Positions 17,682-23,600 of a DNA stretch of 34,196 bases are shown piece after piece. Origin of the DNA: a virus (Duplodnaviria; Heunggongvirae; Uroviricota; Caudoviricetes). Every line of letters starts with the position of its first letter. Positions within the stretch are counted from its first letter, which is position 1. The DNA is taken from IMG/VR virus record IMGVR_UViG_2563366972_000006; one strand, written 5' to 3'. The position numbers were made by a program.

Positions 17682-20600
17682 ACCCGCTCCAACATTTGTA
17701 ATAAGCCTTATTGTATTACAGCACTGGCGTATTTTTTATTACGTGGGAGCGGATTGTGTTTAAATGGTATTCTGTTCTCTGGCTATGATTTAAGGTCGGG
17801 TGTAGCCTCAGTGCTGAATTTTTACGGCAGCAGAATGATGCATTATCGGTGGAGATTTTGTATTTCCTTGCAGGGTCGGTGATGCATCATTCTGGTGTTG
17901 TAAACAGCACCGCAGAGGTGTTCCTCAGTGCGAGGGTGGTTTATATAGTGGTTTAACGGGGAATCACAATATCTGTTGTAGGGATGGATATTTCGGGAGG
18001 CACCCGACACCTCGATTTCTATTACAATAAAAATGATTGATCTCATGCATTGACCAACCGCCTCCACTGGGCGGTTTTTTTTTATTCTGAATTCAAAAAA
18101 AAGAAAACACGGACACTGATAATGTCCGTGTGGCAATGCCATATAAGTCAGCGATGAATATGGCGCAAAAAAAAGCGCGGCTGTCGGATTAACGCCGCGG
18201 GACAAAGTCCGTGAAGAAGAATAAGTATTGGCCCCCTTCTGGGGACGAGTTCATATTACTAAGCATTAAAAATGGTTTAAACCCTAAGATTAACCTTAAT
18301 TTCAGGTAAGTCTTATTTCACTTCCTCGCGCCACGACCGGCGCACATCAAATAACTCCACACCAAAGGCATCTGCGGGTGCCTTTGGTGGGCGTTTTTTT
18401 TGCGGGCTGCTGGTGGCCCTTTTTTCTTTACAGGAGAAAAAGTATGTCTGAACCCTTATCCGGTTCTGGTACAGCCGCTGCGCTCGGCGGGGCGACGGTA
18501 TTCGGACTGTTTACCGGGACGGATTTCGGGATTGTGTTTGGGGCGTTCGCCGGAGCGTTGTTTGTGGCAACGATACCGCAGTCGCTTTCAGCCTGGCGGG
18601 TGGCGGCACATTTTCTGGTGTCGTTCATTGTCGGCGTGCTGGGAGCGCGCGTGCTGTCAGCCTGGATTGCAGCAAAAACAGGTTATGACGGTACATCGGC
18701 GGATGCACTGTGTGCGGTGCTGGTATCGGTGGTGTCGGTAAAGATTCTGTCGTTTATCCACCAACAGGATATCGCATCACTGGTGTCCGGCCTGTTCTCC
18801 CGCCTGCGGGGGGGAGGAGGCGGCAATGTTAAGTAACCTTCCCGGATTGCTGAATGTGGCGTTATGCACGGTTATCGTGCTGACGCTCTTTTTTTATCGT
18901 CGTTGTGATTCCAGACATAAACCGCTGATGTCATGGCTGGCCTGGCTGTTGATGTTGCTTTATGCCTTAACGCCTCTCAGCTATCTGTGTGGTCGCCCGT
19001 TAGCAACGGGCTGGCTGGAAGTGTTTTTTAATCTGTTGTTCTGCGTGCTGGTAATACGTGCTCGCGGGAACGTTTCAAAAATCCTTTCATCCCGGAGGTG
19101 AACATGTCGGGTAAATTCAGATTCAGCCGTCGGAGCGAGAAAAATCTGGAGGGCGTCAAACCACAACTGGTTGCCGTGGTTCGTCGTGCGCTGGAGCTGA
19201 CGGAGGTTGATTTCGGTATTACGGAAGGGCTGCGCACGAAAGAACGCCAGAAACAGCTGGTCGCGGAAGGGAAAAGCCAGACCATGAACAGCCGTCACCT
19301 GACCGGTGATGCGGTGGATGTTGTGGCCTACATTGGCAGCCAGGTGTCATGGGACTGGCCTCTGTACGAGAAAATAGCGCAGGCATTTAAGCAGGCTGGC
19401 GCAGAGCTGAATACTCCCATTGAATGGGGCGGGGACTGGAGTTCTCTGAAAGACGGACCACATTTCCAGCTGAAGCGATGACAGCAGGGGCTGAATATGA
19501 GCAGAGTTACTGCGATTATCTCCCCTCTGGTTTTCTGCATCATTGTCTGCCTGTCATTGGCTGTTAATCATTACCGTAATAATGCCATTACCTACAAAGC
19601 GCAGCGTGACAAAAACGCCAGAGAGCTGAAACTGGCGAACGTGACAATTACTGACATGCATCAGCGCCAGCGTGATGTTGCTGCACTTGATGCCAGATAC
19701 ACGAAGGAGTTAGCTGATGCGAAAGCTGAAAATGATGCTCTTCGGCGTAAGCTTGATAATGGTGGACGGATGCTCGTCAAAGCCAGATGTACAGTGCCAG
19801 CCACAACAAAAGGCTCCGGCACCGCCATCGTGGGCAATGATGCCACCGTCGAACTCTCTCCAGTTGCTGGACGAAACGTTCTCGGTATCCGGGGGGGAAT
19901 CATCAGCGACCAGGCAGCCTTGAGAACGCTACAGGAGTACATCAGGACGCAATGTCTGAATTAACAGAGCCAGCTTAATTGCTGGCTGTTTGTGTGAGGA
20001 TGGGATTGTGTCAATGTTCAGGTATTATATGAATTACTGGATAAAATCGTTCGGTTTTGAATATCCGTCAAGAACCAGATCGTGATTCTCCCGATGAAGA
20101 ACCAGTGTATCCATATAATCAGGTTTAAATCTCCAGCCGTTCATCTTTTTTGCAATTTTCGACAGACAGTGGTTATGTGTGAAAATTACAGCAATATTAT
20201 CAAATTGTGATATTTCCAGTATATTGTTTACTGCGTCATTATCGCAGGTTGAAATATCAGGAGTGGTTGCTGTTTTCCCACCCGAAAAAAAAGAGGCTGT
20301 CTGTATCGTTCGGACTGTATCTGTTGAATAGAGACCGTAGTCCGGAAACATTTTGCTGAATGCGTTTCCATATTGTTGAGCCTTGCTGGCTCCATTTATT
20401 GTGATTCCATCACGTTCTGACAGGCATGTATTGGTGGAGCGATCACATCGTTCTCCATGTCTGATGAGAAAAATAAGCTGATGCTTCTGGTTAATTTCAG
20501 CGATGTCATTCATATCAAGCCTGGTCGGAGTTCTTGCTATATATATGATTGACAGAGAAATTAATATAACGAGTAAAGATATAATCAGAAATTTTATTAT

Positions 20601-23600
20601 TTTGCGGCTGGGCATATAAATATCCTTATACAAGTGTGTGAAAAAGGACATTATTATTTGTAAATCTTATGTAATCCTTAAGGGGGTCTGACGTGGAGAA
20701 ATGGGCACTGGTAGCGATACTGGTGCCTTTTTTATTGGTGGGATGCGTCAGCCTGGATAAGGCGCGCCAGTTTTTCGATACCGCGTCTCAGGTCTGCCAG
20801 CTTATTGATGACTTTCGACGGTGTACGCAGAACTGATCGCCGGTAAGAACAGAATATTTTTCTGAAAAATGAAGGGTGTGCCCGCGTGCAGAAAGCATGA
20901 AATTCTGTGTTTGTGGTTATTCAATAAAATAAAATCTTTCTTTCGCCGCGAATACTCAAATGTTGATCAGCGCCCGGTGCGGCGACGGGCTTCGATATCA
21001 GGAGACGATGATGGAAAAAACAGAAAACAAACCGATTGTAATTGGTGCTGCTGCTGTTCCGTTTAAGTTTGAGTTGTCTCAACTGGTGGAGATGCGCATC
21101 AGTGATGAATGGGGTGAGGTTAAAGCCCGCGCGCAGTATGCGGATGGCGAAAACCAGTACTTGCTCCACTATAAAGCAGCTGATGGTCGCGCCACGACGG
21201 AGTGGTTTGGTGAGTCAATGCTGGAAGCAACAGAAGATGATCGCCATCCGGGGTGTCCGGTATTTGCCTGCATGAAATTACCGGAAGGCGCAGTCGTTAC
21301 TGAATAACAGGTATTACAGCAGTTCTTCGGTGATGGGCTGCTGTAATGCAGGTGTTAGAGTGTGTGTAAATGATGATTGCTCCCATTTTCACGGGTCCTT
21401 TCCAGAACCTGAAACACCGGGGGTCATGGGACGCGCAAAAACGCGCTATTTATGAAAATTTTCCAGGAAAAAGCATGTCGGTACTTCTCGCGCGTAACTG
21501 TTTGTTTTTTCAGATATCGTATCTGTAAAAGGTCCGACATGATATCGCTCAAAAATGCCTTATTCAGGCGTTTTCATGTCGGACCTTGTATTTGATATGG
21601 AAATGTATTGTGAAAGTTAACAAAAAGAAACTTGCTGAAATTTTCAACGTGGATCCACGAACGATTGAACGTTGGCAGTCTCAGGGGCTGAGAGTTTTGT
21701 CGGGGGGAGGCAAAGGTATCGAGGCCATGTTCAATACTACAGAAGCCATTGAGTGGTATGCGCAGCGGGAAAAAGATATCGAAAATGAAAAGCTCCGCAA
21801 AGAACTGGAAGATTCGCGTGCGGCTGCAGAATCAGATTTACAACCCGGCACCATTGACTATGAACGCTACCGGCTCACTAAAGCACAGGCTGACGCACAG
21901 GAGCTGAAAAATGCCCGCGAAGAAGGGCTGGTGCTGGAAACGGAATTGTTTACTTTCATTCTGCAACGTGTGGCTCAGGAGATTTCGGGAATACTTGTAC
22001 GTGTGCCGCTGACATTACAGCGTAAATATCCGGATATTTCACCGTCACACCTTGATGTGGTGAAAACTGAAATTGCGAAAGCCTCCAATGTTGCAGCTAA
22101 AGCCGGTGAAAACGTGGGCAGGTGGATTGATGATTTCAGACGCACAGAAGGCAGCTAATGCAGCCGGTGCGATAGCCACAGGGCTTTTATCTCTCAATAT
22201 TCCGGTTCCACTGACGACGGTTCAGTGGGCTGATCAAAATTATTATCTGCCGAAAGAATCTTCATATACCCCCGGGCAATGGGAAACCCTGCCGTTTCAG
22301 GTTGCCATTATGAACAGCATGGGAAATGACCGGATCCGCACCGTTAATCTGATTAAATCGGCGCGCGTTGGTTACACCAAAATGCTGTTGGGGGTGGAGG
22401 CTTATTTTATTGAGCATAAATCCCGTAACAGTCTGCTTTTTCAGCCAACAGATTCTGCGGCAGAAGATTTCATGAAATCTCATGTTGAGCCAACGATCAG
22501 GGATGTCCCTGCATTGCTGGAGCTGGCTCCATGGTTCGGAAGAAAGCACCGCGATAATACACTCACCCTGAAGCGTTTTTCCTCCGGCGTGGGGTTCTGG
22601 TGCCTGGGCGGTGCCGCAGCTAAAAACTACCGTGAAAAATCTGTGGATGTGGTCTGCTATGACGAACTCTCCTCGTTTGAACCGGATGTGGAAAAAGAAG
22701 GCTCGCCGACGCTGCTTGGCGATAAACGTATCGAAGGCTCGGTATGGCCTAAATCCATACGTGGCTCAATGCCGAAAATTAAAGGCTCCTGCCAGATTGA
22801 GAAAGCCGCGAATGAATCTGCGCATTTCATGCGGTTTTATGTCCCTTGCCCTCATTGCGGGGAGACCCAGTATCTGAAGTTTGGCGATGATGCGACGCCG
22901 TCTGGCCTGAAATGGGAGAAGGGTAAACCGGAAACGGTGTATTACCTGTGTGAACATAATGGCTGTGTGATCCGGCAGTCGGAACTTGACCAGACCGACG
23001 GACGCTGGATTTGTGACAATACCGGGATGTGGACGCGTGATGGCCTGACATTTTACAGCGCCGGTGATGAGGAGATGCCGCCACCGCGCTCAATCTCGTA
23101 CCATATCTGGACGGCGTACAGTCCGTTCACCACCTGGGTGCAGATTGTCTACGACTGGCTGGATGCGCTGAAGGATCCGAACGGCGTCAAGACGTTTATT
23201 AACACCACGCTCGGGGAACCCTATGAAGAGGCCGTGGCAGAAAAACTGAGCTTTGAGTTGTTGCTGGAAAAGGTCTGCCACTATGGCGCGCAGGTCCCCC
23301 TGCGGGTGGTTTACCTGACCGCCGGGATCGACTCCCAGAAAGATCGCTATGAAATTTATGTCTGGGGCTGGGCTCCCGGCGAAGAAGCCTTTCTGATTGA
23401 TAAGCAAATTATCATGGGGCGACCGGAAGACGAGGACACCCTTAAACGTGTTGATACGGTGATCCGGAAAAAATATCGTCATGCTGACGGTACTGAAATT
23501 TCCATTTCCCGTGTCTGCTGGGATACCGGTGGTATCGACCAGGACATTGTGTATCAACGTTCCAGGAAACACGGCACTTTTTTTGTGCTTCCCATAAAAG

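What the first reader, a model, noticed from the sequence alone, without database searches (positions are those of the whole stretch)
20034..20615. Ais/PmrG-like histidine phosphatase moron after the lysis cassette
An AT-rich, oppositely oriented gene encodes a secreted or membrane-anchored histidine phosphatase with the RHGERCDRS catalytic motif and several blocks matching recalled E. coli Ais (LPS core heptose-phosphate phosphatase, part of the PmrAB-regulated envelope-modification set). A prophage copy could remodel LPS of the lysogen, which is a lysogenic-conversion candidate affecting cationic-peptide resistance or phage adsorption.
Basis: partly seen in the sequence, partly recalled or inferred. 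Interest (0 to 1): 0.6.

Follow-up and report, generated by a model that had tools for sequence, protein, structure and literature searches.

The report
Prophage LPS-core phosphatase with PmrA promoter
A lambda-like prophage of E. coli carries, just after its lysis genes, an intact extra copy of the Ais/PmrG-type enzyme thought to strip a phosphate from the cell's outer lipopolysaccharide. Its promoter looks built to be switched on by the host's PmrA/BasR envelope-stress regulator, which makes it a plausible but untested lysogenic-conversion gene.

Summary
Window 20034-20615 (-) is an intact 193-aa ORF with the RHGERCDRS motif. It has 38.5% GC against 51-53% in its flanks, and it lies convergent to Rz/Rz1 and before the Nu1 terminase gene, the slot that bor occupies in lambda.

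It passes Pfam His_Phos_1 and the NCBIfam Ais/PmrG subfamily model (212 bits, cutoff 142) but fails the PmrG equivalog model (118 bits, cutoff 170). It is 49% identical to K-12 Ais. A confident AlphaFold model matches only histidine phosphatases.

It belongs to a diversified clade of mobile paralogs (52-93% identity, dN/dS 0.1-0.45). These recur in the same post-lysis slot in prophages with different endolysins and terminases, including one in E. coli O104:H4 outbreak strains.

New here: every prophage variant keeps a PmrA/BasR box (window 20666-20682: CTTAAG-N5-CATAAG), then 10 nt, then a -10 hexamer, about 50 nt before the ATG. The K-12 arnB and pmrR promoters have the same geometry.

The most likely function is a PmrAB-induced, membrane-anchored periplasmic phosphatase acting on an LPS core phosphate. 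Enzyme activity, regulation and phenotype are all untested. RefSeq already names the protein by homology. I rate it a new member of a known kind, of moderate interest.

The parts
20034..20615 (-). Coding sequence of the Ais/PmrG-subfamily histidine phosphatase paralog (193 aa, identical to RefSeq WP_001585657.1)
   Evidence: ORF list. NF011945 scores 212 bits against a cutoff of 142, and PF00300 scores 24.5 against 21.7. The exact protein is in the collection as an E. coli protein. dN/dS is 0.11-0.45 against homologues.
20535..20600 (-). Codons 6-27: N-terminal hydrophobic helix, predicted to be an uncleaved signal anchor (N-in, catalytic domain in the periplasm)
   Evidence: The AF2 model has a helix at residues 4-27. 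The Kyte-Doolittle mean is 2.93 over a 19-mer, against 2.02 for the K-12 Ais signal peptide. The prophage clade follows this segment with a conserved RTP instead of the AWS/SNG cleavage region of chromosomal Ais. The topology itself is inferred.
20436..20462 (-). Codons 52-60, RHGERCDRS: catalytic RHG motif (His53 as nucleophile) plus the family-specific ERCDRS
   Evidence: Read directly from the sequence. H53, R56, C57, D58 and R59 are invariant in 61 family members.
20169..20177 (-). Codons 147-149, HNH of the conserved FTHNHC block (second catalytic histidine region)
   Evidence: H147, H149 and C150 are invariant in the 61-sequence alignment.
20623..20627 (-). Shine-Dalgarno AAGGA, 7 nt before the ATG at 20615
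   Evidence: Minus-strand read.
20650..20655 (-). Predicted -10 hexamer AATAAT, exactly 10 nt downstream of the PmrA box
   Evidence: An xATAAT-like hexamer sits at the same offset in seven prophage variants and in K-12 arnB (TAAAAT) and pmrR (CATACT).
20666..20682 (-). Predicted PmrA/BasR box CTTAAG-GATTA-CATAAG in the -35 position
   Evidence: Pattern search. Conserved position and geometry in divergent prophage paralogs. The composite motif occurs once in the window, with 0.027 expected per shuffle. Box definition from PMC3973317 and PMC10570014. Binding is not shown.
19968..19987 (.). GC-rich hairpin between the convergent Rz and phosphatase genes, a candidate shared terminator
   Evidence: Terminator-like scan, reported on both strands.
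19965..20694 (.). The moron cassette as a whole (hairpin, gene, promoter), 37.9% GC
   Evidence: Homology to phiP27-like prophages that lack the gene resumes at window 20695, and homology to other phages' Rz ends at 19964. GC values.

Best explanation
This is a self-contained prophage accessory cassette (a moron). It encodes a catalytically intact paralog of the LPS core heptose(II)-phosphate phosphatase Ais/PmrG.

Shown here: the family and fold assignment, intact catalytic residues, purifying selection, the cassette structure, and its recurrence in the same post-lysis slot of many lambdoid prophages.

Inferred at sequence level: transcription comes from its own sigma-70 promoter, in which a PmrA/BasR box replaces the -35 element. 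If so, the lysogen expresses the gene when the host PmrAB (BasSR) system is active (Fe3+, Al3+, mild acid), independently of and antisense to the phage late operon.

Inferred: the protein is inserted in the inner membrane by an uncleaved N-terminal signal anchor, with the catalytic domain in the periplasm, where four conserved cysteines could form disulfides. There it removes a phosphate from the LPS inner core, most probably the Hep(II) phosphate installed by WaaY. This would lower surface negative charge and change a surface structure used by metals, cationic compounds and phages.
For: - **Family:** PF00300 is above its gathering score. NF011945, the 'LPS core heptose(II)-phosphate phosphatase' subfamily, scores 212 bits against a cutoff of 142. 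Identity to K-12 Ais is 49%.
- **Fold:** The AF2 model has pLDDT 93.5. All 50 listed Foldseek PDB hits (141 with E <= 0.001) are branch-1 histidine phosphatases such as RosC, the MutT1 histidine-phosphatase domain, phosphoserine phosphatase, CobC, SixA and PGAM5.
- **Catalytic residues:** R52, H53, R56, R59, R102, H147 and H149 are invariant or nearly so.
- **Selection:** dN/dS is 0.11-0.45, with dS 0.7 to above 2 between clades.
- **Moron structure:** GC is 38-39% against 51-53% in the flanks. The gene is absent from phiP27 and an Stx2e prophage that share the flanks. Lambda bor occupies the same slot.
- **Recurrence:** Paralogs at 52-93% identity sit directly after the lysis genes on the opposite strand. 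Their prophages have M15, GH108 or lysozyme endolysins, and Nu1/GpA, Terminase_2/6 or 933W-like packaging modules.
- **Promoter:** A PmrA box, then 10 nt, then a -10 hexamer lies 45-54 nt before the ATG in seven prophage sequence variants and in one plasmid copy. It is absent from the fimbria- or island-associated paralogs L016/17, L020/21 and L026/27.
- **Promoter comparison:** K-12 arnB and pmrR have the same geometry, and eptA has a perfect box 46 nt before its ATG. The composite motif is unique in the window, with 0.027 expected.
- **Literature:** PmrG is PmrA-activated and dephosphorylates Hep(II) phosphate (PMC8129183, PMC4312571).
Against: - The protein scores below the PmrG equivalog cutoff (117.7 against 170). 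It is only about 40% identical to chromosomal Ais over the full length, so its substrate may differ.
- The family's function rests on one Salmonella study, which I could not retrieve. K-12 Ais is still annotated 'putative'.
- The bare PmrA-box pattern is not rare. It gives 3 matches in the window against 2.25 expected. The case rests on position, geometry and conservation, not on binding data.
- The second half-site, CATAAG, departs from the XTTAAT consensus.
- The host already has a chromosomal ais, so the benefit of a second copy is unexplained.
- There is no transcript, protein, LPS-chemistry or phenotype evidence for this gene. The searches of the held literature that I ran returned no paper about it.
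Confidence: 0.6

Rival explanations
1. The enzyme family and location are as above, but the substrate is different. The prophage clade would have diverged to remove another periplasm-exposed phosphate, for example Hep(I) phosphate or pyrophosphoethanolamine, the lipid A 1-diphosphate made by LpxT, a Kdo-linked group or an O-antigen or ECA phosphate. It would not then be a redundant copy of Ais.
For: It fails the PmrG equivalog model. Several positions are fixed differently in the prophage clade and in chromosomal orthologues (RHG against RHA, F109 against W, I118 against D, and a different N-terminus). A host that already has ais gains little from an identical activity.
Against: All family-specific blocks (ERCDRS, GIT, RTIQTA, FTHNHC, KPDY) are retained. 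The subfamily HMM score is high. The PmrA-type promoter fits the same physiological programme as Ais.
Confidence: 0.2
2. The main selected role is phage-centred. Changing the inner-core phosphate pattern would mask or alter a receptor, giving superinfection exclusion or protection against competing LPS-dependent phages or IncI-type conjugation. Host stress tolerance would be secondary.
For: The gene family lives mainly on mobile elements. It occupies a conserved prophage slot. A 47%-identical paralog is TraG of IncI1 plasmids, found in 1,440 plasmid records; in pESBL it lies beside the shufflon, separated from it by traF, traE and rci. From my own knowledge, the shufflon-encoded PilV adhesins recognise recipient LPS. 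Prophage LPS-modifying exclusion modules are well known (general knowledge).
Against: A PmrA-gated promoter would give protection only under PmrAB-inducing conditions, which is odd for an exclusion function. No phage is known to me that requires Hep(II) phosphate specifically. TraG was dispensable for pESBL conjugation. This rival is not exclusive of the best explanation.
Confidence: 0.12
3. The gene is silent or decaying cargo, a horizontally acquired remnant with no current function in the lysogen.
For: It is rare. Only 3 of 5,426 complete E. coli genomes carry this allele group, and 88 of 5,426 carry any mobile-type copy detectable at the DNA level. Only one of 50,697 deposited phage records has a homologue. 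Some neighbouring small ORFs are pseudogenised in the O104:H4-type prophage.
Against: All eight compared alleles are intact full-length ORFs with dN/dS of 0.11-0.45 although synonymous sites are saturated. Catalytic residues are invariant. Promoter elements and the ribosome-binding site are conserved.
Confidence: 0.05
4. It acts as an accessory regulator of fimbrial expression. One family member is labelled 'transcriptional activator AfrS', and several paralogs lie beside fimbrial operons.
For: P0118 is named AfrS by a source. Paralogs P0007 and P0030 lie next to CS1-type and chaperone-usher fimbrial operons.
Against: The protein has an export or anchor segment and a complete phosphatase active site, and it has no DNA-binding domain. 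No fimbrial genes lie near the window copy. The held literature gave no supporting paper.
Confidence: 0.03

Closest known systems
Salmonella PmrG / E. coli Ais (chromosomal, PmrA-activated LPS core heptose(II)-phosphate phosphatase; NCBIfam NF011945 / NF052369)
   Same: Same subfamily HMM (212 bits). Same RH[GA]ERCDRS and FTHNHC blocks. Same size of about 195-200 aa. Both have an N-terminal export segment. A PmrA-type promoter is predicted here, matching the known PmrA activation of PmrG.
   Different: Identity is only 49% locally and about 40% over the full length, and the score is below the equivalog cutoff. The gene is in a prophage and not beside arnB. It has RHG instead of RHA. Its hydrophobic segment is longer and is followed by RTP instead of a signal-peptidase site, so the protein is probably membrane-anchored and not soluble. 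Its PmrA box lies about 50 nt from the ATG, whereas K-12 ais has only a weak, 2-mismatch box 192 nt upstream, overlapping the arnB box in inverse orientation.
TraG of IncI1 conjugative plasmids (R64/pESBL type)
   Same: It is another mobile-element paralog of Ais, 47% identical locally, annotated with the same product name, and carried by a horizontally transferred element that interacts with LPS.
   Different: It is embedded in the tra region next to the shufflon and is not a stand-alone cassette. It forms a separate sequence cluster. It was not required for conjugation in the pESBL transposon screen. I did not examine its promoter.
Lambda bor, and the post-Rz moron slot of lambdoid phages
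   Same: It occupies the identical genomic slot with the identical arrangement: immediately downstream of Rz/Rz1, on the opposite strand, before the packaging genes. It is envelope-directed cargo expressed from the prophage.
   Different: Bor is an unrelated outer-membrane lipoprotein that confers serum resistance. It is not an enzyme and is not known to be PmrA-regulated.
Prophage LPS-modifying conversion modules (for example P22/SfX gtrABC glucosylation and oac O-acetylation; general knowledge)
   Same: Both are temperate-phage genes that chemically alter the lysogen's LPS.
   Different: Those modules act on O-antigen, add groups, and are usually placed next to int/att. This gene would remove a phosphate from the inner core, and it appears wired to a host two-component system.

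Membership tests
Histidine phosphatase superfamily, branch 1 (Pfam PF00300) | Profile match above the curated gathering score | tested here: met
   24.5 bits against 21.7, E 2.5e-5, covering the N-terminal third of the profile.
Histidine phosphatase superfamily, branch 1 (Pfam PF00300) | RHG motif with nucleophilic His, plus partner Arg and His residues | tested here: met
   R52-H53-G54 is present. R56, R59, R102, H147 and H149 are invariant in 61 family members.
Histidine phosphatase superfamily, branch 1 (Pfam PF00300) | Alpha/beta phosphoglycerate-mutase-like fold | tested here: met
   The AF2 model has pLDDT 93.5 and pTM 0.87. Foldseek against the PDB gives 141 hits with E <= 0.001, and all 50 listed are histidine phosphatases.
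Histidine phosphatase superfamily, branch 1 (Pfam PF00300) | Phosphatase activity through a phospho-histidine intermediate | not testable with these tools
   Needs an enzyme assay.
Ais/PmrG LPS core heptose(II)-phosphate phosphatase subfamily (NCBIfam NF011945) | Subfamily HMM above the curated cutoff | tested here: met
   212.3 bits against 142, covering residues 15-197 of the 205-aa translation and model positions 11-197 of 201.
PmrG equivalog (NCBIfam NF052369), i.e. orthologue of the characterised enzyme | Equivalog HMM above the curated cutoff | tested here: not met
   117.7 bits against 170. The protein clusters apart from the chromosomal Ais/PmrG clades.
PmrG equivalog (NCBIfam NF052369), i.e. 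orthologue of the characterised enzyme | Chromosomal position next to the arn (pbgP) operon | tested here: not met
   The window copy lies between Rz/Rz1 and Nu1 of a prophage. K-12 ais lies beside arnB.
Ais/PmrG LPS core heptose(II)-phosphate phosphatase subfamily (NCBIfam NF011945) | Export to the periplasm | tested here: inconclusive
   There is a strong N-terminal hydrophobic helix and four conserved Cys (C57, C64, C124, C150). There is no recognisable signal-peptidase site. No signal-peptide predictor was available.
Ais/PmrG LPS core heptose(II)-phosphate phosphatase subfamily (NCBIfam NF011945) | PmrA/BasR-dependent expression | tested here: met
   This was tested at sequence level only. 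A PmrA box, then 10 nt, then a -10 hexamer is conserved across the prophage variants and matches K-12 arnB and pmrR. Binding and induction were not tested.
Ais/PmrG LPS core heptose(II)-phosphate phosphatase subfamily (NCBIfam NF011945) | Removal of the Hep(II) phosphate of the LPS inner core | not testable with these tools
   Needs LPS mass spectrometry. The literature basis is Nishino et al. 2006, as cited in PMC8129183 and PMC4312571.
Phage moron (accessory cassette in a conserved phage backbone) | Present or absent between the same flanking genes in related phages | tested here: met
   phiP27 and an Stx2e prophage share the right flank, starting at window 20695, together with the same holins, M15 endolysin and (in the Stx2e prophage) the Nu1/GpA packaging genes, but lack the gene.
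Phage moron (accessory cassette in a conserved phage backbone) | Base composition deviating from the backbone | tested here: met
   37.9% GC for 19965-20694, against 53.4% for the lysis genes and 51.1% for the packaging genes.
Phage moron (accessory cassette in a conserved phage backbone) | Own promoter and terminator, independent of phage operons | tested here: met
   This was tested at sequence level. The gene is on the opposite strand to the late operon, has a predicted PmrA-type promoter, and has a hairpin at 19968-19987 after its stop codon. Transcription was not measured.
Phage moron (accessory cassette in a conserved phage backbone) | Expression in the lysogen with benefit to the host | not testable with these tools
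   Needs transcript and phenotype data.

The most novel reading that the evidence does not exclude
Lambdoid prophages, and possibly IncI plasmids, maintain a dedicated, diversifying clade of membrane-anchored Ais-like phosphatases. These would have been re-wired to the host PmrAB sensor and would have a specificity distinct from chromosomal Ais. The prophage would then use a host gut or metal signal to re-pattern inner-core LPS phosphates on demand. The payoff could be colonisation or metal tolerance, or conditional masking of an LPS receptor against competing phages and LPS-targeting conjugative pili.
Probability: 0.22. Interest if true: 0.65.

Novelty: new member of a known kind. Interest (0 to 1): 0.42.

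Why it matters
If the prediction holds, this is a clean example of a phage moron plugged directly into a host two-component regulon (PmrAB/BasSR). It would add a mobile, strain-variable layer to the LPS charge-remodelling programme that governs tolerance of metals and cationic antimicrobials.

The gene family is present in prophages of notable pathogens, including E. coli O104:H4 outbreak strains, an Stx1 phage and porcine ETEC. A paralog is carried by more than a thousand plasmid records, mostly conjugative. Any effect on envelope properties, phage susceptibility or conjugation would therefore be widely relevant.

It also offers a second, divergent enzyme with which to test the still 'putative' biochemical function of E. 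coli Ais.

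Tried and rejected
- **PDB by sequence:** no hit at E <= 1, so there is no solved Ais-family structure. A fold search was used instead.
- **PHROGs:** no significant family for the phosphatase (best E 0.014), so the family is essentially absent from that phage protein catalogue.
- **PADLOC:** no meaningful defence-system hit for the phosphatase or its neighbours.
- **Literature:** searches for PmrG with prophage, core heptose phosphatase with prophage, BasR with prophage and ais, and histidine phosphatase with prophage and LPS found nothing about prophage copies.
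- **AfrS searches:** these returned only unrelated uses of the acronym plus one adhesin-list paper.
- **Primary PmrG paper:** Nishino et al. 2006 is not held, so its findings are cited second-hand.
- **Bare PmrA-box pattern:** the bare pattern is not significant in the window (3 matches against 2.25 expected), so I did not rely on it. The argument rests on the composite geometry, the location and cross-clade conservation.
- **205-aa reading frame:** the start at 20651, used in some RefSeq records, was rejected. That ATG overlaps the predicted -10 hexamer, has no ribosome-binding site, and most homologues are 191-194 aa.
- **Box serving the divergent ORF:** I considered whether the box serves the lipoprotein ORF at 20693 (+). 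On that strand no -10-like hexamer follows at the right spacing (and direct reading).

Full report
**1. Observation**

The window is a lambdoid E. coli prophage read from its integrase to its morphogenesis genes. Its parts, in order, are:
- integrase at 1-1236 (-), then RecT and RecE;
- a cI-like repressor at 7541-7948 (-) and replication genes;
- two Q-like antiterminators at 11649-12176 and 16644-17186;
- tRNA-Thr and tRNA-Gly at 17538-17691;
- two holins at 18378-19101, an M15 endolysin at 19098-19481, Rz at 19497-19964 and Rz1 at 19717-19923;
- after the region of interest, Nu1 at 21586-22158, GpA, gpW, portal, an S49 protease, the decoration protein and the major capsid protein.

Between Rz and Nu1, on the opposite strand, lies an ORF from the ATG at 20615 to the stop at 20034, encoding 193 aa. 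It contains RHGERCDRS at residues 52-60. Its GC content is 38.5%, against 53.4% and 51.1% for the flanking modules.

A longer reading from the ATG at 20651 (205 aa) is used in some RefSeq records. It is unlikely. That ATG has no ribosome-binding site and overlaps the predicted -10 hexamer, whereas AAGGA precedes the 20615 ATG by 7 nt. Most homologues are 191-194 aa.

**2. What the protein is**

- Pfam His_Phos_1 is matched above its gathering score.
- The PmrG equivalog model NF052369 is missed, at 117.7 bits against 170.
- BLASTP to K-12 Ais (b2252, fetched) gives 49% identity over 156 residues, E 5e-51.
- No PDB sequence is related.
- An AlphaFold2 model built on 61 family sequences is confident, with pLDDT 93.5 and pTM 0.87. 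Foldseek against the PDB returns only branch-1 histidine phosphatases: RosC, the MutT1 C-terminal domain, phosphoserine phosphatases, CobC, SixA, PGAM5, PhoE and TIGAR.
- H53, R56, C57, D58, R59, R102, H147, H149 and C150 are invariant, and R52, E55, C64 and C124 nearly so.

The enzyme therefore looks catalytically competent. It is a member of the Ais/PmrG subfamily but a paralog, not the orthologue of the characterised PmrG.

**3. N-terminus**

The model has a helix at residues 4-27. Its hydropathy is very high, with a Kyte-Doolittle mean of 2.93 over 19 residues against 2.02 for the K-12 Ais signal peptide.

In the prophage clade this segment is followed by a conserved RTP. Chromosomal orthologues have ...HAAWSSNGLP, a typical signal-peptidase region. 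I infer an uncleaved signal anchor with the catalytic domain in the periplasm. The four conserved cysteines fit an oxidising compartment. This topology was not tested.

**4. Origin and distribution**

The exact protein is RefSeq WP_001585657.1 from E. coli and is already named by homology. It occurs on 11 contigs with the same prophage context. It also occurs at 100% identity on one IMG/VR viral contig of 43,953 bp.

- Only 3 of 5,426 complete E. coli genomes carry this allele group, at about 93-96% nucleotide identity in the same context.
- 88 of 5,426 genomes carry some mobile-type copy detectable at the DNA level, including E. coli O104:H4 outbreak strains.
- Only one of 50,697 deposited phage records has a homologue, the Stx1 phage GER2, where it is also after Rz.
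- PHROGs has no family for it.
- Species-representative genomes contain only the chromosomal Ais type in Escherichia, Salmonella, Citrobacter and relatives, plus distant homologues at 23-36% identity in Pseudomonas.

**5. A clade of mobile paralogs in a fixed prophage slot**

Clustering the homologues separates two groups. The chromosomal Ais/PmrG clades are 56-94% identical to K-12 Ais. A set of clades is 51-82% identical to the window protein but only 32-41% identical to K-12 Ais.

Context look-ups show that representatives at 73%, 70%, 57% and about 52-58% identity (52% in the full-length alignment, 58% locally), together with the O104:H4 and porcine ETEC UMNF18 copies, all lie directly after the lysis genes, on the opposite strand, before the packaging genes. 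Their prophages have different endolysins (M15 peptidase, GH108, lysozyme) and different packaging modules (Nu1/GpA, ParB_N-TAGT-Terminase_2/6, 933W-like).

Other paralogs sit elsewhere:
- beside fimbrial operons or IS elements;
- beside a SPATE autotransporter;
- in 1,440 plasmid records, mostly conjugative, at 47% local identity. In the IncI1 plasmid pESBL this paralog is the gene called traG, close to the shufflon, and it was dispensable for conjugation.

Eight prophage alleles are all intact. Their dN/dS is 0.11-0.45, while dS between clades is 0.7 to above 2. This indicates purifying selection over a long association.

**6. It is a moron cassette**

Homology to phiP27 and to many E. coli prophages resumes at window 20695, and homology to other phages' Rz ends at 19964. 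phiP27 and an Stx2e prophage have the same holins and M15 endolysin, and the Stx2e prophage also has Nu1/GpA packaging genes. Both lack the gene and carry other small ORFs there.

The 730-bp unit at 19965-20694 has 37.9% GC. A hairpin at 19968-19987 separates the convergent Rz and phosphatase genes. Lambda bor occupies the same slot in the same orientation.

**7. New result: a conserved PmrA/BasR-type promoter**

Upstream of the gene, on the minus strand from 20682 to 20650, the sequence reads CTTAAG-GATTA-CATAAG, then 10 nt, then AATAAT. The ATG follows 50 nt after the box.

The experimentally defined PmrA box is CTTAAG/XTTAAT-type hexamers separated by 5 bp. The pbgP box is CTTAAT-N5-CCTAAG, and the box replaces the -35 element (PMC3973317, PMC10570014).

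The bare pattern is not rare, with 3 matches in the window against 2.25 expected. Three other observations carry the argument.

(a) The composite of a box with at most one mismatch, 10 nt and a -10-like hexamer occurs once in the window, at this site. It is expected 0.027 times per Markov shuffle.

(b) K-12 PmrA/BasR targets have the same geometry:
- arnB: CTTAAG-GTTAA-GTTAAT, 10 nt, TAAAAT;
- pmrR: CTTAAG-GTTCA-CTTAAT, 10 nt, CATACT;
- eptA: a perfect box 46 nt before its ATG.

(c) Seven sequence-divergent prophage variants, and one plasmid copy, keep a box at 45-54 nt from the start codon, and the prophage variants follow it with an xATAAT-type hexamer 10 nt further on. Examples are CTTAAG-GATTC-CTTAAG, GTTAAG-ATTTC-CTTAAT and ATTAAT-TGCCT-CATAAG with TATAAT. 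The surrounding non-coding sequence is otherwise dissimilar, and synonymous sites between the clades are saturated.

The paralogs beside fimbrial operons (L016/17, L026/27) and beside the SPATE island (L020/21) have no such box. This is a phylogenetic footprint. It is not a demonstration of binding.

**8. Mechanism proposed**

Shown here: family, fold, intact active site, purifying selection, cassette structure and the recurrent slot.

Inferred from sequence: PmrAB-dependent transcription in the lysogen, antisense to and independent of the late operon, and an inner-membrane anchor with a periplasmic catalytic domain.

Inferred from family knowledge: removal of the Hep(II) phosphate that WaaY adds to the LPS inner core, as reported for PmrG (PMC8129183 and PMC4312571, both citing Nishino et al. 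2006). An inner-membrane location would place it with the other periplasmic-face LPS-modifying enzymes (EptA, ArnT, EptB, EptC, LpxT; general knowledge).

The expected consequences are lower core negative charge and altered metal and cation binding. A polymyxin phenotype is doubtful, since a pmrG deletion alone had no effect on polymyxin B resistance in E. coli WD101.

**9. Rivals**

The rivals are a different phosphate substrate, a primarily phage- or plasmid-centred receptor-masking role, silent cargo, and an AfrS-like regulatory role. They are weighed in the rival section. The first two are not excluded, and the second is compatible with the main explanation.

**10. Novelty and score**

The protein is already in RefSeq with a homology-derived name. 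The enzyme family, the moron concept and prophage LPS modification are all known.

What is new is that a whole clade of these paralogs occupies the bor slot of lambdoid prophages, and that the clade carries a conserved PmrA-type promoter and a probable membrane anchor. None of the literature searches I ran returned a description of this.

I classify it as a new member of a known kind, of moderate interest (0.42). The interest would rise if the PmrAB wiring, or a distinct substrate or receptor-masking role, were confirmed.

Noticed in passing
window 12186-14607 (-): A very AT-rich island (32.5% GC) lies between the two Q-like antiterminator genes. It encodes an NA37 (YejK-like nucleoid-associated) protein of 398 aa (phrog_3767) and a 414-aa protein with no Pfam or PADLOC hit (phrog_5023). 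In a sister prophage with the identical phosphatase (L006), the same slot instead holds a Peptidase_S8 protein plus an AAA ATPase. This looks like a variable cargo hot spot and a possible defence island.
   Followed up: partly
window 20693-20836 (+): A 47-aa ORF with a lipobox (LLVGC) and two further conserved cysteines matches phrog_7528 (unknown function). It is divergent from the phosphatase gene. It is conserved in many related prophages with or without the phosphatase, is unannotated in phiP27, is duplicated in L018/L019, and is interrupted by stop codons in the GER2 and O104:H4 type.
   Followed up: partly
plasmid hits H54-H79; pESBL table in PMC4288162: The gene called traG in IncI1 conjugative plasmids is an Ais/PmrG-family histidine phosphatase, about 47% identical locally. 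Homologues were found in 1,440 plasmid records. It lies near the shufflon and was not needed for conjugation in a transposon screen. A link to LPS recognition by the thin pilus is a speculation I did not test.
   Followed up: partly
L016/L017, L026/L027, L020/L021, L134: Other mobile paralogs of the phosphatase sit next to CS1-type or chaperone-usher fimbrial operons (often with an EAL-domain gene), next to a SPATE autotransporter, or next to AIDA-I on a plasmid. One member (P0118, strain UMNF18) is labelled 'transcriptional activator AfrS' by a source. The basis of that name could not be traced.
   Followed up: partly
L001 6538-7155; L005 6232-6504: There are annotation inconsistencies for this gene in public records. 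Some RefSeq entries start it at an upstream ATG (205 aa) that overlaps the predicted -10 hexamer. The GER2 phage record annotates only a 273-nt fragment, although tblastn aligns residues 27-193.
   Followed up: partly
window 14904-15059 (+) and 15193-15345 (+): A Hok/Gef-type toxin ORF of 51 aa lies downstream of the AT-rich island. About 130 nt further on is a short tandem-repeat stretch that translates as repeated LLY units. The antisense sok-like RNA was not examined.
   Followed up: no
window 11649-12176 and 16644-17186 (+); 17538-17691 (+): The prophage has two Q-family antiterminator genes, one on each side of the AT-rich island. tRNA-Thr (TGT) and tRNA-Gly (TCC) genes lie between the second Q gene and the holins, in the position where Stx phages carry tRNAs and stx.
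   Followed up: no
L051 (E. coli O104:H4 C227-11, NZ_CP011331.1 1859873-1860454): The 2011 outbreak lineage carries the GER2-type allele of this phosphatase (79.7% nucleotide identity, same PmrA-box promoter). It lies after Rz in a 933W-like short-tailed prophage that has nanS-p but no stx at that locus.
   Followed up: partly
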